A DNA stretch of 64,000 nucleotides, taken from positions 288,124-352,123 of the forward strand of contig JBHLLT010000001.1 of NCBI GenBank assembly GCA_048938855.1. The letters are read 5' to 3'. Of this stretch, positions 37,633 to 54,009 are shown piece by piece (within the stretch, counting starts at the first letter, position 1; every line of letters starts with the position of its first letter). The position numbers were made by a program, and so were the translations under genes. This DNA is from Promethearchaeota archaeon (lineage in GTDB: Archaea; Asgardarchaeota; Lokiarchaeia; Sigyniarchaeales; SOKP01). The notes below the pieces were generated by a model that was not told where the DNA came from, did not search any database, and saw only the letters and a program-made list of their open reading frames with translations.

Positions 37633-38937
37633 TTAGTCCCATTTGGGACCTCCTGATTTTTCTACTGTATTATCATCGTCTTCGGAGTGAATTCTTTTAA
37701 GATCTATATCTTGATAACCGGGAAGAACACCTAACATCCTTCTCATGGCAAATTCAACATCTTTAGCGCTTGCAATAAATCTTCCAACAATTAAAATATC
37801 TGCTCCTTGATCTAATGCATATGATGCACTGCTTGGTTCAATTCCTCCAGCAACAGCTACTAACACTCTATCTCTTCCTGAAGCTTTCTTTTGATTTGCA
37901 TATAATTCTTTAATTTTTGGAACTAATGCCCATCTTGCTTTTTGAGAAGCATCTGGAGAGCTAGCTCCTTCTGTTGATTGCTCAACGTCAATTGCTCTAT
38001 GTATTATTACAACATCAGGTGTTTGTCTTAATGAACTGAGTTTCTCAACCGGGTTTTGAACTTCCATTGTATCAACAAAAGCATGTATCCCTAATCTTTG
38101 TGCTTCTAATATAAACTTATCAAGAGAAGCTGTTGCAGCTAAACCACTAGCAACAACAGCATCTGCAGTGGCATCAAAAGCAAAGTCAACTTCTAACTTT
38201 CCAACGTCTAACGTCTTTAAATCCGCAACAATAAATTTATCTCTAGCCACTTCACGGATCTTTTTAATAGACTCAACACCATATTTTTTAAGAAAAGGAG
38301 TGCCCACTTCGAGTATAATTCGGTCGCTTTTTGGCAATTCTTTAACAACTTTCATTTGTCTTTCCAGAGCAGGATGATCTAAAGCTACCTGGATATATGG
38401 GGGTCTCCAGAGTCTAGGAACTCGAATTCCAGCAACAGGGTGTTTTGCTCGATCTTTATCATAAAATATCTTCTCAATTGGGGGATAACTTTTTAGAGCT
38501 CTCTGGATTGCTAATTTTGTAGCCCCATAATTGTATTGATAAATTTTACGATAATCTTTAGCTTCTGGATGTATATACACGCTTGCTATAATAAGCCAAT
38601 CCTCTATTTTATTCATAGGAATAAGACCTTCTTCGACAGCATCAGCTATCCCTTTAGCAACCGCAGCCTGAGCAGGTCCAAAGATTTTGCTCGCATCTTC
38701 CATTTTGGCAACAGTGACTTTAGGAACTATTAAACTAACTGGTTTTGCCAATAGATTAGGGCGGATTCCTGCGAGTAATCCGCCATGACCTTTAGAAGGT
38801 GTACTTAACGCATTCGCGAAAGAAACTCCTACAGGTCCATCCTTAGATCCAATAATCAAATCTATGTGTGCTAAATTTGGATCACTAGCATCTCCCACAA
38901 GTGCCTCGCCGACATAATATTCAATAGCTTTAGGCAT
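37633..38937 (-). CDS. fae-hps: Bifunctional formaldehyde-activating enzyme / 3-hexulose-6-phosphate synthase
   Basis: GEALVG..AHIDLIIG, FGPAQAAVA, YNYGATK; PPYIQVALD, ADLKTLDVG, HRAIDVE, VAGG. Confidence 0.93.
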   Translation of the reverse strand: MPKAIEYYVGEALVGDASDPNLAHIDLIIGSKDGPVGVSFANALSTPSKGHGGLLAGIRPNLLAKPVSLIVPKVTVAKMEDASKIFGPAQAAVAKGIADAVEEGLIPMNKIEDWLIIASVYIHPEAKDYRKIYQYNYGATKLAIQRALKSYPPIEKIFYDKDRAKHPVAGIRVPRLWRPPYIQVALDHPALERQMKVVKELPKSDRIILEVGTPFLKKYGVESIKKIREVARDKFIVADLKTLDVGKLEVDFAFDATADAVVASGLAATASLDKFILEAQRLGIHAFVDTMEVQNPVEKLSSLRQTPDVVIIHRAIDVEQSTEGASSPDASQKARWALVPKIKELYANQKKASGRDRVLVAVAGGIEPSSASYALDQGADILIVGRFIASAKDVEFAMRRMLGVLPGYQDIDLKRIHSEDDDNTVEKSGGPKWD

Positions 38938-39247
38938 GATTTTCACTTTATTTTTTTACTTTGAGTTTAAATTTTTGTATAATTTTGCTGAGTTTTTCTA
39001 TTTATAATAGTGTGTGTTATGGATAATATAAAAAATTGATTATCTACATTATTTGAGAGTTAATCTTCCATTAATAAAATTATCCTTGCTTGAAATTAAA
39101 AATAGCCAATAGAAAGAATTGTTAAAATCTTTAATATTCACAGTTTATTTGTATTTTTTTCAGAGAGTACGGAAATTTTATATATTTGAATTGACATTTA
39201 TATCAAAAAGCAAAATGTTAAATTACAGAGTATAGAGGGAAAAATAA

Positions 39248-39924: not shown

Positions 39925-41271
39925 TTAAATTTTTCTTTGATACTTATTTTCGATATCTTTTGCATATTTATAGAGTATTTCTAATTTTTCTTGCTTTAAT
40001 TCTTTTGTCTCAAATATAAGATGATTACAATCATATTTAGAAAAATTATTTTCGAATATTCTAATTTGAAAATTTTCTTTTTCCTCCCAAAGGCGTGAGC
40101 CTGGATACGGAGTTGCTACGAAGTAATTCAACTCATCTTTCTCGTCTAGTGGAAGAGATTTTATATAATCAACTGTCTCATGAAAGCTTTCTTCAGTTTC
40201 TCCAGGTAAACCTAATACAAAATATACCTGAAGGGCAATATCATTGTTTTTAAGATTTATAATACCTTCTCTTACGCGTTCAGGGTCTTGATATTTGAAA
40301 TTTGTTTTTAAGACTCCCTCATTTGCAGACTCTATTCCCGTTGCTACTAAATTACATCCTGCTTGTTTTAATAGATGCGCTTCTTCGGGGGTTATGGTAT
40401 CTACTCTTATTTCACAACCCCATGGAATTTTTATATTATTTTCAATAAACATTTTGCAGAAATTTCTGAAAAACTCTTTATTAATATTCACGTTGTCATA
40501 AAAATTGATATGGGTATAAGTTTGTAATGATCGAATATCTTTAATCTCTTTTAAAATTGAATTAATGGTCCTAATTCTTGTAGTCTTGAAAAGATTTTGT
40601 CTTGAGCAAAATGAACATTGATTAGGGCATCCTCTATTAACTATGACGTTAGCAACAGTATAATAATAGTATTCTTGAAGTAATTTATATCGGGCAGGTA
40701 AGGGTAGACTCTCTAATTCAGTAGTTTGGACAGGAGGATTGGTAATTAATTTTCCTTTTGAATCGATATAGGCAAGCCCGTTAATAGTATGTAGATGATC
40801 GTCATATTTTCTGAACTTTTGGTGTTTTAAAATCAGAGGTACCAAAAATTTAACTAACTGTAGAAAGGAATTTTCAGCTTCTCCTATGCATATAAAATCA
40901 ATTAAATTTTCAGTTTTTACATCATGTTCTAGGACTTCCTTGTAAGTAAAAGAGACATGAGGTCCGCCCAATATTATAATATTCTCCTGACTTTGATTTT
41001 TTATTATTCTTGCGATATCTAATGCTATATCAAAGGTATTTGTGAGAGAAGTAATCCCGAAGATGTGATAATCAGCTATTCTTTCATTGATTAAATCTTT
41101 CAACTCATTCTTATCAAAATCAATAAATTGTTCAAGATCGAGAATGTCTACTGGAATACCATTTTTTTCTAAAATTGCAGCTATATAAAGTAATCCCAAA
41201 TTTGGTTCTCGAAAATACTGTGTGCGAACTTCTGAAGGTTTTGAAGTTCTAGGATTAATTAGTAGAATCAT
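39925..41271 (-). CDS. Cobalamin-binding radical SAM protein
   Basis: PNLGLLYIAA, GGPHVS, GEAE, RGCPNQCSFC, PYPGS. Confidence 0.9.
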   Translation of the reverse strand: MILLINPRTSKPSEVRTQYFREPNLGLLYIAAILEKNGIPVDILDLEQFIDFDKNELKDLINERIADYHIFGITSLTNTFDIALDIARIIKNQSQENIIILGGPHVSFTYKEVLEHDVKTENLIDFICIGEAENSFLQLVKFLVPLILKHQKFRKYDDHLHTINGLAYIDSKGKLITNPPVQTTELESLPLPARYKLLQEYYYYTVANVIVNRGCPNQCSFCSRQNLFKTTRIRTINSILKEIKDIRSLQTYTHINFYDNVNINKEFFRNFCKMFIENNIKIPWGCEIRVDTITPEEAHLLKQAGCNLVATGIESANEGVLKTNFKYQDPERVREGIINLKNNDIALQVYFVLGLPGETEESFHETVDYIKSLPLDEKDELNYFVATPYPGSRLWEEKENFQIRIFENNFSKYDCNHLIFETKELKQEKLEILYKYAKDIENKYQRKI

Positions 41272-42269: not shown

Positions 42270-44033
42270 TTATTCCCGATAGGTTGGATACCAGTATAAG
42301 AATCTCATACAATTATATGGAAATCCTTTTAAAGAGGTAGCATGAATAAAATAGAGTTTATCATATTGTAATGGTATGTGGTAGTATTGCACATCAATAA
42401 CATATCCTTGAAGTCTCTTATATAGAATATTTCTAGCTGCTATATTTGTTTCAGTAATACATTGTTCTAAAAGATATTGTATGTATGGATCGTTAATTCT
42501 GGCATAGTTTGAAGCAGATTCATTATTTACTAACGGCTCAATCATATTAAAAGCTTCAAAATACTTAGAACCCCATCCAAGATAATAGATGTGAAGTCGA
42601 TCAGGATGATCTTTACCCATTTGGATAAATTGATCCCAAGTCAATATTTGTGCGTGAATATCGATTCCAATAAGATCCATATCCTCCGTGAACCGTTGGA
42701 TAAGAAGCTCCATGAAATGACTAGCTACATTATGGCGGAAATTCCATTGACTATTTGAAAAGTTTCCTGCACCAGCAGTTGGTACAAATTGGGCATCTTT
42801 CCAATCTTGTTCATTAGCTCCTGGAGTGAATATATCTCCAACTTGAGAGCCAACCTGCCAACCAACTCCAAAACCCATAGATTGCATAATTGTTCTGGCT
42901 TTTGGGATATCATACTTGGCTCCGTGGGTTGATGAGTTATGCGCAGGAAACCCAGGTGGCACTAATGAATTAGCTCTCACAGTCCTATGTTCCTCGATTT
43001 CTTGATTGAGGTATGTATAATTAAACGCGTGTGAAATTACCATCCTCCAAGTTCGGTTTATAATTTCAGAGTTAAATGTAATGTACCAATAGATTGAACC
43101 ATTAATATAATCATGAACCCCATCTCCAGTGAACGTGATATTGGAATTTGGCTCCACACAACTTTTTAGCCCATTAGGCCATTGACCTAACCAGTCAATA
43201 TCTAAATTAGACATAGCTTCACATAGAGCAACAGCATGTGGATAAAACATATAAACAATCTCATCCCAATAAGCACCAGTTCTCCAATATCTTTCCCACC
43301 GGGCAAATCGAACCTCAGAATTAGGAATATATCTTATTAATTTGAATGGTCCTGTACCAATAACGAGATCTTCATCAACATCTAACATTTTATTTGTAGG
43401 AGTAGAATCAGGATGGACAATTGCGCTTGCAGTATAACCAAGTAATCCTTCAACTGGGGCATAAGGGCGATTTAATTTAAGACTTACAATATAATCACCA
43501 GTAGCAAAACTTAAAGTATCATTAAATATGGGAATCCCATCACTAAATTTATATAGAGCGTGAGGGGCAGCCATGGTATATACATCAGGATCTAAGGTTC
43601 CTGTCCAATTACCAAAAAAGTTAATACGAGTAATTGTATGTAGAATACAATCTGCTGTAAAGCGTGAGCCGTCATGGAAGAATACGTTTTCTCGCAGTTT
43701 GAATTCAATGGTTGTATTATCAGGCCAATACCATGATTCAGCAAGTCGTCCAACAAGCGGAAGGTCTGGATCAGTTAAATCATACGCAATGAGGGTTTCA
43801 ACCACTTGATCGAGCATGTCTTTTGAAACGCTGTCCCAACAATCTACAGGATCCATAGTAACTGGATTAGAACTCCTTGCTACTCTCAAAATTTCTCCAG
43901 ATTCACCAGATTCAGCAGATTTACCAATAACCAGAAAAGTGAAAAGAACGTTGCCAAGACCAGAAGCTGCTAATACGACTGATAAAACAATTATTACTAA
44001 TTTTTTTTTCTCCATTTCCATTTTTATACACAT
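42270..44033 (-). CDS. ABC transporter substrate-binding protein, family 5 (peptide/nickel)
   Basis: TMDP, LAESW, LRENVFFHDGSRFTA, GTGPFKL; N-terminal TM. Confidence 0.9.
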   Translation of the reverse strand: MCIKMEMEKKKLVIIVLSVVLAASGLGNVLFTFLVIGKSAESGESGEILRVARSSNPVTMDPVDCWDSVSKDMLDQVVETLIAYDLTDPDLPLVGRLAESWYWPDNTTIEFKLRENVFFHDGSRFTADCILHTITRINFFGNWTGTLDPDVYTMAAPHALYKFSDGIPIFNDTLSFATGDYIVSLKLNRPYAPVEGLLGYTASAIVHPDSTPTNKMLDVDEDLVIGTGPFKLIRYIPNSEVRFARWERYWRTGAYWDEIVYMFYPHAVALCEAMSNLDIDWLGQWPNGLKSCVEPNSNITFTGDGVHDYINGSIYWYITFNSEIINRTWRMVISHAFNYTYLNQEIEEHRTVRANSLVPPGFPAHNSSTHGAKYDIPKARTIMQSMGFGVGWQVGSQVGDIFTPGANEQDWKDAQFVPTAGAGNFSNSQWNFRHNVASHFMELLIQRFTEDMDLIGIDIHAQILTWDQFIQMGKDHPDRLHIYYLGWGSKYFEAFNMIEPLVNNESASNYARINDPYIQYLLEQCITETNIAARNILYKRLQGYVIDVQYYHIPLQYDKLYFIHATSLKGFPYNCMRFLYWYPTYRE

Positions 44034-44075
44034 TTCTCAAATTTATTTTGTTATATTAAAATAATATATCCAATG

Positions 44076-45812
44076 TTATTCCCGGTATGTGGGATACCAA
44101 TATAAAAGTCTCATACAGTTATATGGGAATCCTTTTAAGCTGGAAGCGTGAACAGTGTAGATTTTATCATATTCTAGAGGCATATGGTATGCATATTTAT
44201 CAATAATTAAATATTGAAGTTTCTTATAGTATTTATTTCTCATTTGAGTGTCAGTTTCAGCCATAGTAAGATCTAAAAGCGCATTGATTTCTGGATTGTC
44301 TATTTCCGCTAGGTTGGAGGAAGATTCCGGGTTGACTAGTGGTTCTATCATACTAAATGTTTCAAAGTAATCTGGTCCCCATCCTACGAAAAATATATCA
44401 TATGGAGTTTCCCACCATGGATCCCACCAATCCCAACTGCTGCCACCATAGATTGTAATTCCTATGCGATCCATATCCTCAGTGAATCGTTGGATAAGAA
44501 GTTCCAAAAAATGACTAGCAACATTGCGTCGGAAATAAAAACCATCATTTGAAAAATTCCCCTGTTTTGGTACGAATTGTGCAATTGTCCACTGAAATTC
44601 ATCAGTTCCAGGAATGAATTGGTCTCCATTCATACTGCCTACATCCCATCCTACTCCATAACCCATACTTTGCATATATTGCCTTGCTTTTGGGACATCA
44701 TAGTTAGCACCTTTTACTGATGCGTTGTGTGCAGGAAATCCCGGTGGAACTAATGAGTTTGCTCTTACCATATTATCTTCTGTAATTTCATGGATTAAGT
44801 ATGAATAGTTAAAAGCATATGAAATGGCTTTTCTCCAAGTCCAATTTATATATGAAGATTTAAATGCAATATACCAATAGATTGACGCATTGATATAATC
44901 ATGAACCCCATCACCAGTTACGGTAATACCTGGATGCGCTTCAAAATCAGGCTTGAGGGAAGAGATGCCATGCCCCAAAAAATCAACCTTTCCTGCTAAC
45001 AATGCGTTGTTCGCAGTAACAGCGTCTCTATAATATACGTAGACAATTTGATCCCAAAAAGCTCCAGTTCTCCAATATCTCTCCCATCGAGCAAATCGAA
45101 TCTCTGAGGTAGGAATATATCTAATTAATTTGAAAGGGCCAGTCCCAATAACGAGATCTTTACTGATATCCAACATTTTATCTGCAGGAGTAGAATCAGG
45201 ATGAACTATTGAACTTGCCGTATAAGCAAGTAATCCTTCAACTGGTCCATAGGGCCGATTTAATTTCAGAGTTACATTATAATCATCAGTAGCATAACTT
45301 AAAGTATCATTAAAGATAGGAATTCCATCTCTAAATTTATAAAGTGAATGCGGAAAAGCCATATATACAGTATCAGGCAATGTACCAGACCAATTACCAA
45401 AATAATTAATTCTTGTAATTGTATACAAAACACAATCTGCGGTAAACCGTGAACCATCATGAAAAAACACATTTTCTCGTAGTTTGAATTCAATAGTTGT
45501 ATCATCAGGCCAATACCATGATTCTGCAAGGCGTCCTACAAGTGGAAGGTCTGGATCAGTTAAATCATACGCAATGAGAGTCTCAAGCACTTGATCAAGC
45601 ATATCATTTGATATACTATCCCATGTATCTACAGGGTCCATAGTAACTGGATTAGATGTCCTTGCTACTCTGAGAATTGCTCCAGTTTCAGTATTACGAT
45701 TAAAAATTGAAGAAAGTATCACCGCACTAAAACTGCTAAAAACGACAATATTAGCTATCAATGCAATAAAAATTGCCCAATTCAGAATTTTATTTTTGGA
45801 ATTGTCTCTCAC
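44076..45812 (-). CDS. ABC transporter substrate-binding protein, family 5; paralogue of the adjacent gene
   Basis: Same motifs; long identical peptide blocks shared with 42270..44033. Confidence 0.9.
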   Translation of the reverse strand: MRDNSKNKILNWAIFIALIANIVVFSSFSAVILSSIFNRNTETGAILRVARTSNPVTMDPVDTWDSISNDMLDQVLETLIAYDLTDPDLPLVGRLAESWYWPDDTTIEFKLRENVFFHDGSRFTADCVLYTITRINYFGNWSGTLPDTVYMAFPHSLYKFRDGIPIFNDTLSYATDDYNVTLKLNRPYGPVEGLLAYTASSIVHPDSTPADKMLDISKDLVIGTGPFKLIRYIPTSEIRFARWERYWRTGAFWDQIVYVYYRDAVTANNALLAGKVDFLGHGISSLKPDFEAHPGITVTGDGVHDYINASIYWYIAFKSSYINWTWRKAISYAFNYSYLIHEITEDNMVRANSLVPPGFPAHNASVKGANYDVPKARQYMQSMGYGVGWDVGSMNGDQFIPGTDEFQWTIAQFVPKQGNFSNDGFYFRRNVASHFLELLIQRFTEDMDRIGITIYGGSSWDWWDPWWETPYDIFFVGWGPDYFETFSMIEPLVNPESSSNLAEIDNPEINALLDLTMAETDTQMRNKYYKKLQYLIIDKYAYHMPLEYDKIYTVHASSLKGFPYNCMRLLYWYPTYRE

Positions 45813-46981: not shown

Positions 46982-49282
46982 TTAACGAGCATCCAAATTA
47001 ATATTCGCAGAACAATTCTTACATTGAATAGATTCTCCACCTAAGAATTTCTCAACTAAATCACTTGATATTAAAGTATAACAATATGGACAAAACTTCG
47101 ACATTACGGTAACCCTCATATCATAAAATTTTTCATCAGGTTTAATTACTTTTTCAAGAATTAATTGTTTCCTAACACGGTCGCCCACTTCAGCGAGAAA
47201 AGCGGTGATTTGTTCATCCTCATCACCAGAGACTTCTAATTCTAGCACTTTATTTTCACCATCTAACATTACGTAGGGAATTATTCTTTGCTTTTTCACT
47301 TTAGTTATCCCATAAAACCAGGCTTCACCAAATTTGTTTTCTTCATCAAATTCTTTATATACCAATTTAATATCAAATTTACCTAGTACTGACACAATCG
47401 ATGAAAAAATTGTATTTGCTTTTTCAGGATCTGCTATAGGGAAAACTTTTTTATCCCGATTTGCAAGAGAGCGAACGAGACTTTTAACTCGGGCTAAATT
47501 GGCTTCATCTTCAGTAAAAAATATTGGACATGATATTCCGATCATCTTAGGTCTCATTGGTATAGCATGAGGTTTTTCTTTTGCGTCAAAAAAACTTACC
47601 GTAACATTTACAGAACTCTCCATACAATTAACAGGTTCAAGATAGAGTGAGACTGCTTGCTTTTCATGAGGTCCTAATTTATCAAGTAGAAGACCATCTC
47701 CTTTTCTTTCATAATTAGGCTCATGCATTATCCATTTTAATGCTATAGGGAGATCAAAAGCAAGTCTTAAATTAGTAAAGGTGAAACTGGTATTATTTAT
47801 TACTCCTACCTTAAACCTCACTTGACCGCCAATAAACTCATATTCTCTGATAATGGATAAAATGCTATCTTGATCTCCATCTTTAAGAATAGTAGGTATT
47901 TTTCTTAGTCCAATATCGTCATCCCTCTTCTCTTGAATTGAGGAACGCAGAAATTGAGCATTCTTTATTTTTGTTTCTAATTTATTAAGGATATTTTTAA
48001 ATTCATCAGATTGTTCACTATTTTCCTTTATTTCAGAATATGATGCTATTATATCATTTACCAACTCAATTGCTTTAGTTGCATCCTCCCTTTGTATCTT
48101 CTTTATTTGTTTTAATTTTTTATCAATTTCTAAAATTTTGACTTCAGTTTCATGAAATTTTAATTGGTCTTTTATTTCTGAAATTCTTTGTTCCACATCT
48201 TCCACAGAATCATTAAAATTTTCTGATTTACTTAGAACTAAGCAAGCTTCATAATCATTTACAGCTAAAGTCCATACTTTTTGAGCTTGAAATAGTTTTT
48301 CTTTATTATAATAACTCAATGCCTTAAAATCAAGGATGTTTCCTCTTTTTTCATAAGCTCCAATCAAAGAGATATTGATTTCTTTTACTAAGTCATTGTT
48401 TTGCTCATTTCCAAGATTTTTAAAATATTCAACACCTTCGATCAAGAATTTTATTATTCTGTCAAGTGATTGTTTATTATATTGCAAATTCTTTTTAGAG
48501 ATCACTCTTTTCGCATAATTTAAAACATAATTCAATCGATTTTGATAAAACATTTCTTTCTCTTTTGTGGTAAGAATATATTTCTCTTTTTTTGTTGATA
48601 AAATAAAATTAAATAAAAATAGTAAATCAGCAGCAATTATCGAGAAAATAATAATAATGAATGGAGTTAGAGTAAGGTAAAACTGATGGATTCTGGTTGG
48701 ATTATTACTATCAGCTATACTTAAATATAATCCAAATACAAGTTGTATAATTATCAACATGCTTGATTCATACTTATCCATTAAGTATACAAATTTAACA
48801 TTGGGTAATCTATGAAATCGAGTATAAAATTTGGATTTTAAAGCTTCTGAAAATGTGAAAAGAGTAACTAAAATAGAAAAAACTATCCCTAAACTAATCC
48901 AAATTAGTATAAAAATATGCAGCATGAACCATATATTTCTGTATGAAGAAAATCCGGCAATCCAAGCATAGAATATTAAATTAAACCAAAATAAAGAGAA
49001 TAAGCTTATCGCCTTAACAATTCCTCTAAATTGGGTAGTTTTATTATTTAAAATATAAAAAATAATAATTGTCCAAAAAAAACATCCAAGAGATAAGAGA
49101 AAGAAACTATTAATATTTAAAAGATAATCATCAGACAAATATAACCAATTAAAAGCAAAATAGAAAAAATTAATATTCACTTCATCGAGATAAATTAATA
49201 TTTGAAAACCCCAGTAAAGGGTTCCAGCTAGAAGAATTAAAAAAAATATTAGAAATAAAAAATATCGTACTTTTTTTCGCAT
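46982..49282 (-). CDS. Polytopic membrane protein with TPR-like helices, Ig-like sandwich, alpha/beta platform and Zn ribbon
   Basis: About 6 TM; helical middle; REYEFIGGQVRFK..; AWFYGITKV; CPYC..CKNC. Confidence 0.7.
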   Translation of the reverse strand: MRKKVRYFLFLIFFLILLAGTLYWGFQILIYLDEVNINFFYFAFNWLYLSDDYLLNINSFFLLSLGCFFWTIIIFYILNNKTTQFRGIVKAISLFSLFWFNLIFYAWIAGFSSYRNIWFMLHIFILIWISLGIVFSILVTLFTFSEALKSKFYTRFHRLPNVKFVYLMDKYESSMLIIIQLVFGLYLSIADSNNPTRIHQFYLTLTPFIIIIFSIIAADLLFLFNFILSTKKEKYILTTKEKEMFYQNRLNYVLNYAKRVISKKNLQYNKQSLDRIIKFLIEGVEYFKNLGNEQNNDLVKEINISLIGAYEKRGNILDFKALSYYNKEKLFQAQKVWTLAVNDYEACLVLSKSENFNDSVEDVEQRISEIKDQLKFHETEVKILEIDKKLKQIKKIQREDATKAIELVNDIIASYSEIKENSEQSDEFKNILNKLETKIKNAQFLRSSIQEKRDDDIGLRKIPTILKDGDQDSILSIIREYEFIGGQVRFKVGVINNTSFTFTNLRLAFDLPIALKWIMHEPNYERKGDGLLLDKLGPHEKQAVSLYLEPVNCMESSVNVTVSFFDAKEKPHAIPMRPKMIGISCPIFFTEDEANLARVKSLVRSLANRDKKVFPIADPEKANTIFSSIVSVLGKFDIKLVYKEFDEENKFGEAWFYGITKVKKQRIIPYVMLDGENKVLELEVSGDEDEQITAFLAEVGDRVRKQLILEKVIKPDEKFYDMRVTVMSKFCPYCYTLISSDLVEKFLGGESIQCKNCSANINLDAR

Positions 49283-49327
49283 TTAATCCCTCAATTTTGA
49301 TTTTAAATCCTGTATTATTTATCTATT

Positions 49328-51691
49328 CTAATCAATTTTAATGTTTACACAACAATTTTCACAAACAATGGCTTCTCCATTACTAAATTTCTCAATAGCT
49401 TCAGATGGTATGAGTGTAAAACAATATGGACACAAACATGATAAAATCGCAATTCTCATATCATAGAATCCTTCTTCAGAAGTAATTATGTTATTTTCAA
49501 TTAATTTTTGTCTTACACGATCTCCTATCTCAGCTAGAAATGCTGTTATTTGTTCTTCATTATTACCAGAAACTTCAAATTCTAAGGTCTTTCTATCTCC
49601 ATCTAATAGAACATTCATTACAAGTCTTTCTTTCTTAACTTTTGTAATCCCAAAAAACCATGCTTCTCCAAAATTATTATCTTCAAAGAACTCATTAGAG
49701 ATTAATTTTATATCAAATTGTTCTAAGACTGCGAGAATCGAAGAAAAAATTGAGCTTGCCTTATCAGAATCGATAATCGGAAACACTTTTTTATCTCGGT
49801 GTGTAAGATTACGTCTTAAACTTTTAACTCTGGCTAAATTAGCATCAGATTCTGTGAAAAATATTGGACATGAAATTCCAATCATTTTCGGTTTCATGGG
49901 TATTGCATGCGGTTTATCTTTCACATCAAAAAAACCTACCGTGGCATTTACATGGCTCTCCATACAATTAAGTGGTTCAAAATAAAGAGATATTGCTCGT
50001 TTTTCTCTCGCTCCCAATTTTGGGATAAGAATACTATCTCCCTTTCGATTGTAATTTGGTTCATGTGTTATCCATTTTAAAGATTTAGGTAAATCAAAAG
50101 TTATCCGTAAATTAGTTAATGGATAATTTGTATTATTTATCAAGCCCATTTTGAATCTTACTTGTCCTCCAATAAATTCATATTCTCTAACAATCGAAAG
50201 TATCTGTTTTACAATCTCATCCTTAATTACCGAAGCAATTTCAAACTCGCTTAACTCATCCACATCAAATTTCACTCGTTTTTCCAATGGCTTTATCCCC
50301 ATTGATTTATCTAAACTCTCCTGAAGTTTTTCTTGAAACAGTCTGACGTTCAGAAGACGATTTTGTATTTTTTCTGCGTAATCTTCATATATTTTGAAGT
50401 TTTGAGCTTTCTTTTTTGCATCCGAATAAGTTAGTATAATATTATCTGTTAATTTAATTGTTTTAACTAATTCCTGATCTTGTATTTCATGAGCAGTTTT
50501 TAGTGCATCATCTGCCTTTTTAATCATCATTTCAATTTCTAACCGTTTAAGATTCTTAGTTATGTCTTCAATTTTCAATATAATTTCTATACGAGATGCT
50601 TTAGATTTACCATACATCTTCAATCGAAGTATGGAATTAAGATCCTCAATAGCTGCGCTCCACTCTTGTTTAGCAGTATTCAAATCTAATTCCATGTAGG
50701 CTTTTTGAGCATTTTGAAAATGCACTATAACAGCACCATTATAAGCATCATTTAAATTTTCTTTTAATATTCTAAGATTTACATTTATTAATTTCTTCTG
50801 GATAACCATCTTAGAAAAACGTGAATAAATTTGAATTGCTTCTTTCCAGCTTTCTATTGCTAGTTCATATGATTCTTCTTCATAATACCTACTTCCCTCA
50901 TCTATTAGTCTCTTAAAATTTTGTAAAAGTTTATCAAAATTGCTTGTATAGGGCAGATCTTTTTTGAGTTTGATGTGAGTGGGATAACTTTCCTTTTTTG
51001 AATACAGATAATTAATATCATAAAGAAAGTTAATCACTATTAGTGTTAAAAATAAATAAATAGAAGTAAGATAGTTAATTCCTGAAGTACTTAATGCTGA
51101 GGACACTATAAAAAATATCCCCAAGATTAAGATTAGCAAAACAAAAATTCTGAGTTGCATTTTTTCTAAAAAATCAGCAATATTAATTATATACGGTTTC
51201 GGTTCTGATGGAATTTTATCTATTTCCATGGAATCTCTATACAGACGATTTTTTATTATTGGTTTATAAATACGATATGATATAGAGTTTATCACCATAA
51301 TTCCCGCTAATAAGAGTCCTGAACCAACCCAAAAGCGTAATAGAATTTGAAGTATAAGCCAAGAATTTAAGAAAGATTCTAAACCAATACTACTTAAAAA
51401 TACACATATACCAAACCAGAATGGAAAAAACATAACTATTGATTTAATTCCCCTTCTGAACCTTTCTTTATTAAATGTCCCAAAATAATAAACAATAATC
51501 GACCATGAAAAGCAACCTATAAAATAAGAATGAAATACATTAAAATATACCTCACCATCCTCATAGAGTCCTCCCCATCCGAATATCCATTTAAAAAACA
51601 TTTCAAATTGATAATTGTAAACTGTAGGACTGAGTAATGTAAAACCCCCAAAAATCAAAATTGGTAAAAAATATTTGGATTTTTTATTCAT
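49328..51691 (-). CDS. Paralogue of the adjacent membrane protein, same architecture
   Basis: C-terminal ~290 aa strongly similar to 46982..49282; CPYC..CENC. Confidence 0.7.
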   Translation of the reverse strand: MNKKSKYFLPILIFGGFTLLSPTVYNYQFEMFFKWIFGWGGLYEDGEVYFNVFHSYFIGCFSWSIIVYYFGTFNKERFRRGIKSIVMFFPFWFGICVFLSSIGLESFLNSWLILQILLRFWVGSGLLLAGIMVINSISYRIYKPIIKNRLYRDSMEIDKIPSEPKPYIINIADFLEKMQLRIFVLLILILGIFFIVSSALSTSGINYLTSIYLFLTLIVINFLYDINYLYSKKESYPTHIKLKKDLPYTSNFDKLLQNFKRLIDEGSRYYEEESYELAIESWKEAIQIYSRFSKMVIQKKLINVNLRILKENLNDAYNGAVIVHFQNAQKAYMELDLNTAKQEWSAAIEDLNSILRLKMYGKSKASRIEIILKIEDITKNLKRLEIEMMIKKADDALKTAHEIQDQELVKTIKLTDNIILTYSDAKKKAQNFKIYEDYAEKIQNRLLNVRLFQEKLQESLDKSMGIKPLEKRVKFDVDELSEFEIASVIKDEIVKQILSIVREYEFIGGQVRFKMGLINNTNYPLTNLRITFDLPKSLKWITHEPNYNRKGDSILIPKLGAREKRAISLYFEPLNCMESHVNATVGFFDVKDKPHAIPMKPKMIGISCPIFFTESDANLARVKSLRRNLTHRDKKVFPIIDSDKASSIFSSILAVLEQFDIKLISNEFFEDNNFGEAWFFGITKVKKERLVMNVLLDGDRKTLEFEVSGNNEEQITAFLAEIGDRVRQKLIENNIITSEEGFYDMRIAILSCLCPYCFTLIPSEAIEKFSNGEAIVCENCCVNIKID

Positions 51692-53427: not shown

Positions 53428-54009
53428 TTATTTTCCCGATAAAGCTTTTAATTCTGCGATCAACCAGCAAACTTCTTCATAAGTGGATGAAGATTTGTAA
53501 ATTTCCTCTGCTTTTTTCTTTATTTCCCTCTCAGAAGCATCTTCTTTTATAAATTTCATTTGTATCTCTGCTAGTTTTCTACACAGATCTTTATAATCAT
53601 GGCTTTCTTGTGCAATTTTATGTGCTTCAATTGTAATTTCTGCTTCAAAATCTGGGTCTATACCCGCTTCTATAAGCTCTTGAGTATCATTAATGCGAAT
53701 TTTTAACTCAGGTCTTTTTGCAAATTCAGTGCCAGATTCTAATCCTTTCTTTAATAAGTCCATTAATACTAAAAATGATCCAAATTCTTGATTTTGCTTG
53801 AGAATTTGTATCTTAACGCGTTTACTTTTTTGTTCTTTCAGCTTCTCGGTTCTTTTTATGCTTAAATCTTTCTTTTTGCTAGAAACTTTTGAACCTATCC
53901 ATAAATATAAGGTTTTAATATCATCAATTAAAAAGACTTTGTTTTCATTGAAATCCACTTTGGTAACCTTTCTTAAAGCGCCATTTTCAGTAATGCTATA
54001 TAAAATCAT
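53428..54009 (-). CDS. Single-domain gelsolin with C-terminal helical X domain (1DGelX-like)
   Basis: KVFLIDDIKTLYLWIGSK..QNQE; repeated YKDLCRKLAE and YEEVCWLIAE. Confidence 0.75.
   Translation of the reverse strand: MILYSITENGALRKVTKVDFNENKVFLIDDIKTLYLWIGSKVSSKKKDLSIKRTEKLKEQKSKRVKIQILKQNQEFGSFLVLMDLLKKGLESGTEFAKRPELKIRINDTQELIEAGIDPDFEAEITIEAHKIAQESHDYKDLCRKLAEIQMKFIKEDASEREIKKKAEEIYKSSSTYEEVCWLIAELKALSGK

What the first reader, a model, noticed from the sequence alone, without database searches (positions are those of the whole stretch)
46982..51691. Tandem polytopic membrane proteins with adaptin/COP appendage-like tails
Seen: both have a divergent ~6-TM N-terminus, a TPR-like helical stack, and a conserved ~290-aa tail made of a beta-sandwich pattern (REYEFIGGQVRFK..NNT..LRL.FDLP..LG..EK..SLY.EP..TV.FFD), an alpha/beta segment (AWF.GITKV..LE.EVSG..EQITAFLAE) and a CxxC-CxxC ribbon. 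Known: solenoid, then Ig sandwich plus platform, is the layout of large AP/COPI subunit appendages and some BBSome subunits. Inference: membrane-integral proto-coat adaptors, with variable membrane input and constant cytosolic output.
Basis: inference. Interest (0 to 1): 0.75.

Follow-up and report, generated by a model that had tools for sequence, protein, structure and literature searches.

The report
Asgard membrane proteins with adaptin-ear tails
Two neighbouring genes of an Asgard archaeon encode six-pass membrane proteins whose cytoplasmic end folds like the "ear" (appendage) of eukaryotic clathrin-adaptor and COPI coat subunits; the resemblance is real, but this archaeal ear domain has already been described, so this is a new architecture of a known module, not a new kind of system.

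Summary
ORFs 46982-49282 and 49328-51691 (both on the minus strand) encode 766-aa and 787-aa paralogs. Each has six TM helices (N-in, C-in), a seven-helix TPR-like stack, and a roughly 290-aa tail. The tail is 67-73% identical between the copies, against 24-26% for the rest.

The tail folds with high confidence (pLDDT 94) into an Ig beta-sandwich, an alpha/beta platform and a C4 zinc ribbon. In a search of 48,161 PDB chains the four best matches are the AP-4 beta platform (Z 14.2, rmsd 2.5 Å over 121 residues), the AP-2 beta2 ear, the AP-2 alpha ear and BBS9.

The tail is a promiscuous module (538 clusters at 50% identity). It always lies on the cytoplasmic side of polytopic or single-pass surface proteins, or is fused to soluble domains such as Ras, PCI and SPFH.

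It joins by sequence (E 2e-29) the Methanosarcinales type with the layout of the "adaptin appendage" proteins (arCOG15284) that Makarova et al. 2024 published. I found no genomic link to ESCRT or coat genes here. "Proto-coat adaptor" remains inference; a cytosolic interaction hub is the best reading.

First-stage readers of this scan noted the same pair in other genomes.

The parts
49328..51691 (-). Gene 1 (P0002, 787 aa): TM domain, helical stack, appendage-like tail and Zn ribbon
   Evidence: ORF. Orthologs at 85-100% tail identity in Promethearchaeota and Hermodarchaeota MAGs.
50996..51691 (-). P0002 residues 1-232: polytopic membrane domain, an orphan with no known family
   Evidence: Hydropathy. 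AF2 helices. No Pfam, atlas or fold match.
50303..50947 (-). P0002 residues 249-463: seven-helix TPR-like cytosolic stack
   Evidence: AF2 pLDDT mostly 85-97. Weak TPR_11 hit at E 0.002. Foldseek gives only TPR-like matches at E>0.02.
49874..50200 (-). P0002 residues 498-606: Ig-like beta-sandwich subdomain (adaptin-ear/GAE/TRAP-beta-like)
   Evidence: AF2 strands at tail 19-127. VIA Z 11-12.5 to TRAP-beta and GAE, and as part of ear matches. Alpha_adaptinC2 at E 0.02-0.03, below cut-off.
49496..49867 (-). P0002 residues 609-732: alpha/beta platform subdomain (TBP-like, as in the beta-adaptin appendage C-terminal subdomain)
   Evidence: AF2 order alpha-beta-alpha-beta4-alpha at tail 130-253. 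AP-4 beta appendage 2mj7: Z 14.2, rmsd 2.5 Å, 121 of 141 residues; top of 48,161 chains.
49331..49447 (-). P0002 residues 749-787: C4 zinc ribbon (CPYC...CENC)
   Evidence: Sequence. All four Cys are invariant in alignment A3. DZR/Zn-ribbon Pfam hints.
46982..49282 (-). Gene 2 (P0001, 766 aa): paralog with the same architecture, 45 bp downstream of gene 1
   Evidence: ORF. The tandem pair is conserved in loci L012, L013, L014 and L016.
48599..49282 (-). P0001 residues 1-228: six TM helices, N-in/C-in
   Evidence: six segments; K+R 16 inside against 2 outside.
47918..48589 (-). P0001 residues about 232-455: helical stack (24% identical to that of P0002)
   Evidence: Aligned with the P0002 stack in A2 and A6.
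47534..47860 (-). P0001 residues 475-583: beta-sandwich subdomain
   Evidence: 73% identical to the P0002 sandwich, without gaps.
47156..47527 (-). P0001 residues 586-709: platform subdomain
   Evidence: 67% identical to the P0002 platform, without gaps.
46985..47107 (-). P0001 residues 726-766: C4 zinc ribbon (CPYC...CKNC)
   Evidence: Sequence. Pfam DZR at E 0.054.

Best explanation
What they are. The two genes encode integral membrane proteins of an Asgard (Promethearchaeia) archaeon. Each has six TM helices with both ends in the cytoplasm. A roughly 215-aa TPR-like helical stalk leads from the membrane to a compact module: an Ig beta-sandwich, a TBP-like platform and a C4 zinc ribbon. The sandwich plus platform has the fold of the appendage ("ear") of AP-complex and COPI large subunits and of the BBSome GAE-platform.

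The wider family. The module is the Asgard branch of an archaeal family. That family includes the Methanosarcinales type with the layout of the published "adaptin appendage region" proteins (arCOG15284).

How it most likely works (inferred). The strongly conserved module is a constant cytoplasmic protein-interaction hub. It couples very different membrane or extracellular "inputs" to one shared cytosolic partner machinery. In this pair the input is an orphan 6-TM domain; elsewhere it is PKD/Ig, beta-helix or propeller ectodomains behind a single TM helix, or soluble Ras, PCI or SPFH domains. By analogy, eukaryotic ears bind short peptide motifs on their platform and sandwich faces. The partner is most plausibly membrane-sorting or remodelling machinery such as ESCRT. 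The conserved tandem pair probably acts together, possibly as a heteromer.

Shown versus inferred. Shown: architecture, topology, fold similarity, family breadth and the cytosolic placement of the module. Inferred: hub function, the ESCRT or sorting partner, and heteromer formation.
For: Fold.
- AF2 model of the tail: pLDDT 94, pTM 0.87.
- Foldseek top hits are the COPI appendage 9qpq_H (4e-11), the beta2 ear 1e42 (1.7e-9), the alpha ear 1w80 (3.4e-9), gamma-COP 1pzd and BBS9. They cover about 245 columns, that is both subdomains.
- The unbiased VIA search of 48,161 chains ranks the AP-4 beta platform at Z 14.2, the AP-2 beta2 ear at 13.4, the alpha ear at 12.2 and BBS9 at 12.1 as the top four.

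Sequence hints.
- Alpha_adaptinC2 is the commonest weak Pfam hit in family members: 15 of 48, best E 9e-4.
- Language-model look-alikes include eukaryotic alpha-adaptin ear clusters at 0.76, a lead only.

Cytosolic placement.
- Positive-inside rule in P0001: K+R 16 against 2.
- 39 bitopic members have an N-terminal anchor, a large ectodomain (PKD, He_PIG, Big_9, beta-helix), one TM helix and a median 255-aa spacer before the tail.
- Reversed members run appendage-TM-GOLD or appendage-TM-FGE-sulfatase.
- Soluble fusions carry Ras, PCI, SPFH, thioredoxin, TPR or CHAT.

Constancy. The tail is 48-100% identical across 88 proteins with unrelated N-termini, and the family spans 538 clusters at 50% identity.

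Link to the published family. P0003 matches P0168 (appendage-TM-GOLD) at E 2e-29. This is the architecture described for Methanosalsum WP_013898578.1. P0168's relatives are Methanosarcinales proteins. PMC10936438 reports HHpred 98% of that family to the AP-2 beta and beta-COP appendages, and their position next to Vps4, ESCRT-III and SPFH genes.

Pairing. The two genes are 45 bp apart on the same strand, and the tandem pair is conserved in four other genomes.
Against: - No partner is identified. Neighbours in the window are housekeeping genes: S6e, L7Ae, S28e, S24e, Kae1/Bud32, Rpo7 and ABC binding proteins.
- In this genome Vps4 and one ESCRT-III gene lie on contig C70, Vps28 on C49, and a second ESCRT-III gene 116 kb away.
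- The module was found in only 45 of 151 Asgard genomes searched, and is patchy even within the genus. A full-length Vps4 match was found in most of the 61 Asgard genomes sampled. The module therefore cannot be a core ESCRT part.
- Pfam adaptin models do not reach their cut-offs (15-19 bits against 27.6), and no platform family is hit.
- Global superpositions on eukaryotic ears have rmsd 12-13 Å, because the subdomain orientation differs.
- The sandwich alone matches many generic Ig folds equally well.
Confidence: 0.55

Rival explanations
1. Self-assembly scaffold. The appendage-like module mainly mediates homo- or hetero-oligomerisation, as the GAE-platform regions of BBS2, BBS7 and BBS9 do inside the BBSome. 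The tandem paralogs would form an obligate heterodimer or a membrane-proximal lattice. The extreme conservation would then reflect self-interfaces rather than a separate partner.
For: - BBS9 GAE-platform is among the top four structural matches (Z 12.1).
- The tandem pair is conserved across genomes.
- Tail conservation is very high, with many invariant surface-type residues.
- A distant paralog in the same genome has a BBS2/7-like propeller in front of the module.
Against: - Most family members occur singly, with 1-3 matches per genome.
- One constant module sits on dozens of unrelated N-termini, which fits a shared external partner better.
Confidence: 0.2
2. Generic fold, unrelated function. 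An Ig sandwich followed by a helix-grip/TBP-like domain and a Zn ribbon is an ancient archaeal combination. On this view its likeness to adaptin ears says nothing about trafficking. The proteins could be, for example, membrane quality-control or anchoring factors, or surface-protein tethers to the cytoskeleton.
For: - The sandwich matches TRAP-beta, pilins, macroglobulin and transglutaminase domains at Z 11-12.5, as well as it matches GAE.
- Pfam adaptin hits are below threshold.
- The family also occurs in Thermoplasmatota and Methanosarcinales, which have no known vesicle trafficking.
- There is no trafficking neighbour here.
Against: - Only adaptin, COPI and BBS entries match both subdomains in order.
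- The platform match (Z 14.2 over 121 of 141 residues) stands above every other hit.
- The published HHpred probability of the Methanosarcinales relatives to AP-2 beta and beta-COP ears is 98% (PMC10936438, Table S3).
Confidence: 0.15
3. Signalling receptors with a nucleic-acid or transcription-machinery output. The TBP-like platform plus Zn ribbon would bind DNA, RNA or a polymerase factor, making these proteins membrane-tethered regulators.
For: - The platform has the TBP/helix-grip fold.
- The Zn-ribbon part of the family profile gives weak PDB sequence hits to TraR, RNA polymerase subunit P and TFIIE-alpha ribbons (E 0.02-0.8).
- Many members look like receptors: ectodomain, TM helix, then tail.
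Against: - Those hits are at chance level and are typical of any C4 ribbon.
- There is no HTH or other DNA-binding domain.
- The platform's best match is the beta-adaptin platform, not TBP.
- A permanent 6-TM anchor makes DNA access unlikely unless the protein is cleaved.
Confidence: 0.05

Closest known systems
Appendage ("ear") domains of AP-complex alpha/beta and COPI beta/gamma large subunits (e.g. PDB 1e42, 1w80, 2mj7, 1pzd, 9qpq_H)
   Same: - Same two-subdomain order: an Ig beta-sandwich, then an alpha/beta platform with five strands and flanking helices.
- These are the best PDB matches: Foldseek down to 4e-11; VIA Z 14.2 for the platform alone and 12-13.4 for both subdomains.
- The module is C-terminal and follows a helical region.
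   Different: - No HEAT trunk, no flexible hinge and no heterotetramer context. Instead there is a 6-TM anchor and a short TPR-like stack.
- There is an extra C-terminal zinc ribbon.
- The inter-subdomain orientation differs (global rmsd 12-13 Å).
- Sequence similarity is below the Pfam cut-offs.
Archaeal "adaptin (TRAP-beta) appendage domain" proteins, arCOG15284 and Asgard multidomain ESCRT-associated proteins (Makarova et al. 2024, mBio, PMC10936438)
   Same: - IG + TBP appendage region, some members with a Zn ribbon, and some linked through a TM segment to an extracellular domain (GOLD).
- TPR and PCI fusions are reported in Asgard.
- Our tail hits a protein with that appendage-TM-GOLD layout at E 2e-29, and its relatives are Methanosarcinales proteins.
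   Different: - The published Methanosarcinales genes sit beside Vps4, ESCRT-III and SPFH genes. This pair has no ESCRT neighbour.
- The published Asgard examples are described with Vps28-C, steadiness-box or longin domains, none of which I detected here.
- I did not find the 6-TM + stack + appendage + ribbon layout, or its conserved tandem pair, in the text or tables I could read.
BBSome subunits BBS2/7/9 (beta-propeller, GAE, platform, helical domain; PDB 6vbu)
   Same: - BBS9 GAE+platform matches both subdomains: Z 12.1 with 189 residues aligned.
- A distant paralog in the same genome (L003) carries a propeller in front of the module, with weak BBS7/BBS2 Pfam hits.
   Different: - The window proteins have no propeller.
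- The BBS hits of the paralog are below the Pfam cut-offs.
- The global rmsd is about 12 Å.
- There is no evidence of a BBSome-like complex.
[quoted passage not shown]
   Same: The sandwich subdomain superposes at Z 12-12.5, rmsd 2.3-2.5 Å, over 104-106 residues.
   Different: TRAP-beta has no platform subdomain and is lumenal. Here the module is cytosolic and has two subdomains.

Membership tests
AP/COPI large-subunit appendage (ear) | N-terminal Ig-like beta-sandwich subdomain | tested here: met
   AF2 strands at tail 19-127. Aligned within the beta2, alpha, gamma-COP and beta-COP ear matches.
AP/COPI large-subunit appendage (ear) | Directly following alpha/beta platform (TBP-like) subdomain | tested here: met
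   Tail 129-260 against AP-4 beta appendage 2mj7: Z 14.2, rmsd 2.5 Å, 121 of 141 residues. This is rank 1 of 48,161 chains.
AP/COPI large-subunit appendage (ear) | Same rigid sandwich-platform orientation as in the alpha and beta2 ears | tested here: not met
   Two-subdomain superpositions give rmsd 11.6-14.6 Å although 187-216 residues are aligned. This rests on a model, not a solved structure.
AP/COPI large-subunit appendage (ear) | Sequence membership in Pfam Alpha_adaptinC2 / B2-adapt-app_C / Alpha_adaptin_C at the curated cut-off | tested here: not met
   Alpha_adaptinC2 scores 15-19 bits against a cut-off of 27.6 (E 0.03 to 9e-4), in 15 of 48 members. No platform family is hit.
AP/COPI large-subunit appendage (ear) | Attached by a hinge to an Adaptin_N/HEAT trunk within a heterotetramer | tested here: not met
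   No Adaptin_N or HEAT hit. The N-terminus is six TM helices plus a seven-helix TPR-like stack.
AP/COPI large-subunit appendage (ear) | Conserved aromatic peptide-motif sites on the platform and sandwich faces | not testable with these tools
   No residue-level structural alignment or model coordinates were available. The family has an invariant W in the platform strand motif GEAW, but its equivalence to the ear sites is unknown.
Archaeal adaptin-appendage region family (arCOG15284-like; PMC10936438) | IG + TBP two-subdomain region with similarity to the AP-2 beta and beta-COP ears | tested here: met
Archaeal adaptin-appendage region family (arCOG15284-like; PMC10936438) | Sequence relationship to the Methanosarcinales members (appendage-TM-GOLD type; appendage + Zn ribbon type) | tested here: met
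   phmmer of P0003 against P0168 gives E 2e-29. P0168 runs appendage 5-245, TM 354-372, GOLD 452-560. Its relatives are named Methanomethylovorans, Methanococcoides, Methanosarcina and Methanolobus proteins. The link is indirect: the published accessions themselves could not be fetched.
Archaeal adaptin-appendage region family (arCOG15284-like; PMC10936438) | Gene neighbourhood with Vps4, ESCRT-III and SPFH genes | tested here: not met
   Window neighbours are ribosomal and housekeeping genes. Vps4 and ESCRT-III are on C70, Vps28 on C49, and a second ESCRT-III gene is 116 kb away.
BBSome GAE-platform subunits (BBS2/7/9) | Beta-propeller N-terminal to the GAE + platform | tested here: not met
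   The window proteins have a TM domain, not a propeller. Only the distant paralog L003 has one.
MIT-domain proteins (ESCRT-III binders) | Three-helix MIT bundle recognisable by profile | tested here: not met
   VIA gives Z 10-11 to the Sulfolobus Vps4 MIT, calpain-7 tandem MIT and ULK3 MIT domains. But Pfam MIT has no hit in these genes even at E 10, and hhalign against the Asgard Vps4 MIT profile gives probability 1.4%.

The most novel reading that the evidence does not exclude
The appendage + Zn-ribbon module is a built-in sorting handle. On this reading Asgard (and other archaeal) membrane proteins and surface receptors carry their own "ear". The ear recruits membrane-remodelling machinery (ESCRT or a still unknown coat) to the cargo itself. 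This cargo-borne ear would be the evolutionary source of the appendages later moved onto soluble AP, COPI and BBSome subunits in eukaryotes. The 6-TM tandem pair would be a heteromeric membrane-integral adaptor of that primordial system.
Probability: 0.2. Interest if true: 0.85.

Novelty: new variant of a known kind. Interest (0 to 1): 0.55.

Why it matters
How eukaryotic vesicle coats and cargo adaptors arose is an open question in eukaryogenesis. The data here show three things.

- The adaptin-ear fold in Asgard archaea is a very strongly conserved module, not an occasional domain.
- The module is stationed on the cytoplasmic side of many different membrane and surface proteins.
- In this lineage there is a conserved tandem pair of polytopic proteins that carry it.

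That gives concrete targets for pull-downs, structures and localisation in the cultured Promethearchaeia, to find what an archaeal "ear" binds. If the partner is ESCRT or another membrane-shaping machine, that would document cargo-linked sorting before eukaryotes. If the module only self-assembles, the likeness to adaptors is structural heritage without the function.

Tried and rejected
- **MIT or tandem-MIT identity of the helical stack.** VIA gave Z 10-11 to the Vps4, calpain-7, ULK3 and Atg1 MIT domains. Pfam MIT has no hit in these genes even at E 10, and hhalign against a 22-sequence Asgard Vps4 MIT profile gives probability 1.4%. I rejected it as a generic three-helix-bundle or TPR resemblance.
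- **Vps28-C, steadiness box, longin or BAR in the stack.** None appeared in the Pfam, Foldseek or VIA lists. These are absences from lists, not proof.
- **ESCRT linkage by gene neighbourhood.** None found.
- **PDB sequence searches.** The tail alone and the family profile returned only chance-level or Zn-ribbon hits.
- **Identity of the 6-TM domain.** No Pfam match, no fold match, and atlas scores at or below 0.77.
- **RNA genes in the window.** No tRNA and no Rfam family.
- **Neighbourhood survey of diverse family members.** The divergent alignment A1 had no conserved stretch usable for the search for related loci, so only six close orthologous loci were fetched.
- **Mapping conservation onto ear binding sites.** Not possible, because model coordinates are not exposed to scripts.

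Full report
**Where we are.** The window is 30% G+C. It encodes archaeal ribosomal proteins (S6e, L7Ae, S28e, S24e), Kae1 and a Bud32-like kinase, Rpo7 and a gelsolin-domain protein. Close homologs of the two target proteins are labelled Promethearchaeota, Hermodarchaeota or Thorarchaeota MAGs. The organism is therefore an Asgard archaeon of the Loki/Prometheoarchaeal group. The window is contig C34:288124-352123 of a 3.95-Mb assembly that is 97% complete.

ORFs 49328-51691 (P0002, 787 aa) and 46982-49282 (P0001, 766 aa) lie on the minus strand, 45 bp apart. They are 39% identical overall, but very unevenly:

| Region | Identity |
|---|---|
| TM part | 26% |
| Helical part | 24% |
| Beta-sandwich | 73% |
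| Platform | 67% |
| Zn ribbon | 54% |

There are no gaps in the last 300 residues. P0001 has six hydropathy peaks. K+R residues number 16 in the loops predicted inside and 2 in those outside. Both termini, and hence the tail, are therefore cytoplasmic. The AF2 model of P0002 residues 1-480 (pLDDT 83) shows long membrane helices up to residue 231. After a disordered linker come seven helices at 249-463.

**The tail really is ear-like, platform included.** I folded the last 308 residues of P0002 with a 48-sequence family alignment. The model has pLDDT 94 and pTM 0.87. It has a beta-sandwich at 19-127, an alpha-beta-alpha-beta4-alpha unit at 130-253, and a short ribbon carrying the two CxxC pairs.

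- Foldseek against the PDB puts coat-adaptor appendages on top: COPI 9qpq_H (4e-11), AP-2 beta2 1e42 (1.7e-9), AP-2 alpha 1w80 (3.4e-9) and gamma-COP 1pzd, with BBS9 further down (7e-6). The alignments span about 245 columns, the whole length of those ears.
- VIA-align on those candidates gives the AP-4 beta appendage (a platform-only structure, 2mj7) Z 14.2, rmsd 2.5 Å, over 121 of 141 residues.
- A search of 48,161 PDB representatives that does not rely on Foldseek returns the same top four. These are the AP-4 beta platform (14.2), the AP-2 beta2 ear (13.4), the AP-2 alpha ear (12.2) and BBS9 (12.1). Everything below them matches the sandwich only.

Three caveats apply.
- Two-subdomain superpositions have rmsd 12-13 Å, so the subdomains are packed at a different angle from eukaryotic ears.
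- The sandwich by itself is as close to TRAP-beta, pilins and macroglobulin domains as it is to GAE.
- At sequence level only sub-threshold Alpha_adaptinC2 hits appear (E 0.03 in P0002; 15 of 48 family members at E up to 1, best 9e-4). A language-model look-alike list that includes eukaryotic alpha-adaptin ear clusters (score 0.76) is only a lead.

**The helical part is not an adaptin trunk.** Its only matches are weak, generic TPR-like repeats (Foldseek E>0.02). VIA listed several MIT domains at Z 10-11: Sulfolobus Vps4, calpain-7 tandem MIT, ULK3 and Atg1. That would have been an attractive ESCRT-III link, so I tested it. The Pfam MIT model finds the genome's Vps4 and other proteins but nothing in these genes even at E 10. 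A profile-profile comparison of the stack (11 sequences) with the MIT domains of 22 Asgard Vps4 proteins gives probability 1.4%. I rejected the idea. The TM domain has no recognisable relatives.

**The tail is a promiscuous, always-cytosolic module.** A full HMMER scan of 1.84 billion representatives finds 538 clusters at E≤1e-3 and 76 at E≤1e-30. Among 88 close homologs the tail is 48-100% identical, while the N-termini are unrelated. They include 6-9 TM domains, Ras/Roc GTPase, PCI, SPFH, thioredoxin, TPR, WD40 propellers, beta-helix and DUF11. More distant members (about 30% identity) sit at the end of proteins of up to 4,911 aa with PKD, He_PIG, Big_9 and cadherin-like domains, or next to a CHAT protease.

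A hydropathy survey of 218 members gives this breakdown:

| Architecture | Members |
|---|---|
| Polytopic (3 or more TM helices upstream of the tail) | 68 |
| Clean "N-terminal anchor, large ectodomain, one TM" | 39 |
| Other, with 1-2 TM helices (many are fragments) | 49 |
| No TM helix | 57 |
| Module first, then a TM helix and an extracellular domain | 5 |

The spacer from the last TM helix to the sandwich has a median of 255 aa, which is the helical stack. In the five reversed cases the extracellular domain is GOLD, FGE-sulfatase or a propeller. In every arrangement the module is on the side opposite the predicted extracellular part. That fits the zinc ribbon and the soluble fusion partners. 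"Variable input, constant cytosolic output" is thus a fair description.

**It is already a known kind of domain.** Makarova et al. 2024 (mBio, PMC10936438) describe an archaeal "adaptin appendage region" with IG-like plus TBP-fold subdomains.
- In arCOG15284 of Methanosarcinales it scores HHpred 98% to the AP-2 beta and beta-COP ears. One member carries a Zn ribbon, and another is linked through a TM segment to a GOLD domain.
- Those genes lie next to Vps4, ESCRT-III and SPFH genes.
- The paper also states that many Asgard multidomain proteins combine this region with Vps28-C, longin, TPR, IG and PCI domains.

Eme et al. 2023 (PMC10307638) list Pfam alpha-adaptin C-terminal and beta2-appendage subdomains among Asgard proteins. 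My family search connects the two by sequence. The Asgard tail hits P0168 at E 2e-29. P0168 has exactly the appendage-TM-GOLD layout, and its relatives are named Methanomethylovorans, Methanococcoides, Methanosarcina and Methanolobus proteins. One distant member is from Thermoplasmatota.

I did not find three things in what I could read of those papers: the 6-TM + stack + appendage + ribbon layout, its conserved tandem pair, and the dominance of membrane and surface-protein architectures.

**Distribution and context.**
- The tandem pair recurs in four other Promethearchaeial genomes.
- Across 151 Asgard genomes the module was found in 45. It is concentrated in the window's own family (22 of 25) and one other family (18 of 26, with weak matches). 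It was not found in most other families searched, and the high-identity pair is missing even from some genomes of the same genus.
- A full-length Vps4 match was found in most of the 61 Asgard genomes sampled, so the module is not a core ESCRT part.
- In this genome the ESCRT genes are elsewhere: Vps4 and ESCRT-III on C70, Vps28 on C49, and another ESCRT-III gene 116 kb away.
- The genome has two further distant copies. One is a 329-aa module-only protein. The other is a 614-aa protein with an N-terminal propeller.

**Most likely mechanism.** Shown: six-pass membrane proteins present, on a helical stalk, a compact ear-like module plus a zinc ribbon to the cytoplasm, and the same module is shared by many otherwise unrelated membrane and soluble proteins. 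Inferred: the module is a protein-interaction hub that connects these proteins to one conserved cytosolic machinery. Two lines support that inference. One is the known motif-binding role of AP and COPI ears. The other is the ESCRT neighbourhood of the Methanosarcinales relatives. The pair may act as a heteromer.

I give this 0.55. Rivals are a self-assembly scaffold like the BBSome GAE-platform pairs (0.2), a generic fold with an unrelated role (0.15), and a membrane-tethered nucleic-acid or transcription output (0.05).

**Verdict.** The structural interpretation is supported. The functional label "proto-coat adaptor" is unproven, and the domain class is already published. This is a new variant of a known kind, of moderate interest as a concrete, testable entry point into what archaeal "ears" bind. 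First-stage readers of this scan had flagged the same pair, and a related single-pass receptor form, in other genomes. Those notes were unchecked and carried no weight here.

Noticed in passing
L003:1444-3288 (-) = G000 contig C54, outside the window: A 614-aa protein with an N-terminal beta-propeller, followed by a divergent copy of the sandwich + platform + Zn-ribbon module (E 2e-7 to the tail). The propeller gives weak, sub-threshold Pfam hits to Beta-prop_BBS7 (9.6e-5), BBS2_Mid (1.5e-4), BBS2_N and Itfg2. Propeller + GAE-like + platform is the BBS2/7/9 layout. The family is well conserved (about 600 aa, 40-85% identity) in Promethearchaeota, Hermodarchaeota and Thorarchaeota, with recurrent precomputed BBS7, BBS2 and PHTB1_N hits. 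A profile search of PDB sequences gave only weak propeller hits: Vps15 1e-4, ITFG2 6e-4, BBS1 0.04. No paper in the library links the BBSome and Asgard directly.
   Followed up: partly
L004:808-1797 (+) = G000 contig C43: A 329-aa protein that is the appendage-like module plus Zn ribbon almost alone (Alpha_adaptinC2 E 0.0014). The atlas shows clusters of about 330-aa module-only proteins with 179 and 50 members in Promethearchaeota. These could be free-standing versions of the hub.
   Followed up: partly
P0349, P0353 and other hits (Methanosarcinales): In Methanosarcinales the module is N-terminal and about 50-60% identical across proteins. Their C-terminal halves are FGE-sulfatase, bacterial PH, TPR, WD40/PQQ, TIR or HEAT repeats. 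The HEAT cases carry precomputed Adaptin_N (PF01602) hits, so a HEAT + ear combination may exist outside eukaryotes.
   Followed up: no
P0202: A 1,264-aa family member with the module in the middle (624-869) and a CHAT/caspase-like protease domain at the C-terminus (990-1257).
   Followed up: no
Tail residues 97 and 129 of P0003 (window about 49868-49870 and 49964-49966, minus strand): Two cysteines outside the zinc ribbon (in the motifs NC and CPIFFT) are invariant or nearly so across both the close and the distant tiers of the family. Whether they are close in space or bind metal could not be checked without coordinates.
   Followed up: no
window 53428-54009 (-): A 193-aa gelsolin-repeat protein (Pfam Gelsolin 2.1e-8), an Asgard eukaryotic-signature protein, 1.7 kb upstream of the pair but separated from it by ribosomal protein genes.
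   Followed up: no
window 42270-45812 (-): Two tandem paralogous family-5 solute-binding proteins (587 and 578 aa; SBP_bac_5 1.5e-42 and 4.5e-53), next to a B12-binding radical SAM gene (39925-41271) and an Fae-OMPdecase (Fae-Hps type) fusion (37633-38946).
   Followed up: no
genomes G008, G049, G132, G150 (same genus as the window): The high-identity tandem pair is patchy even within the genus. One near-complete genome has no match, and the others have only diverged copies (E 1e-19 to 1e-29). This suggests accessory status or frequent loss and replacement.
   Followed up: no
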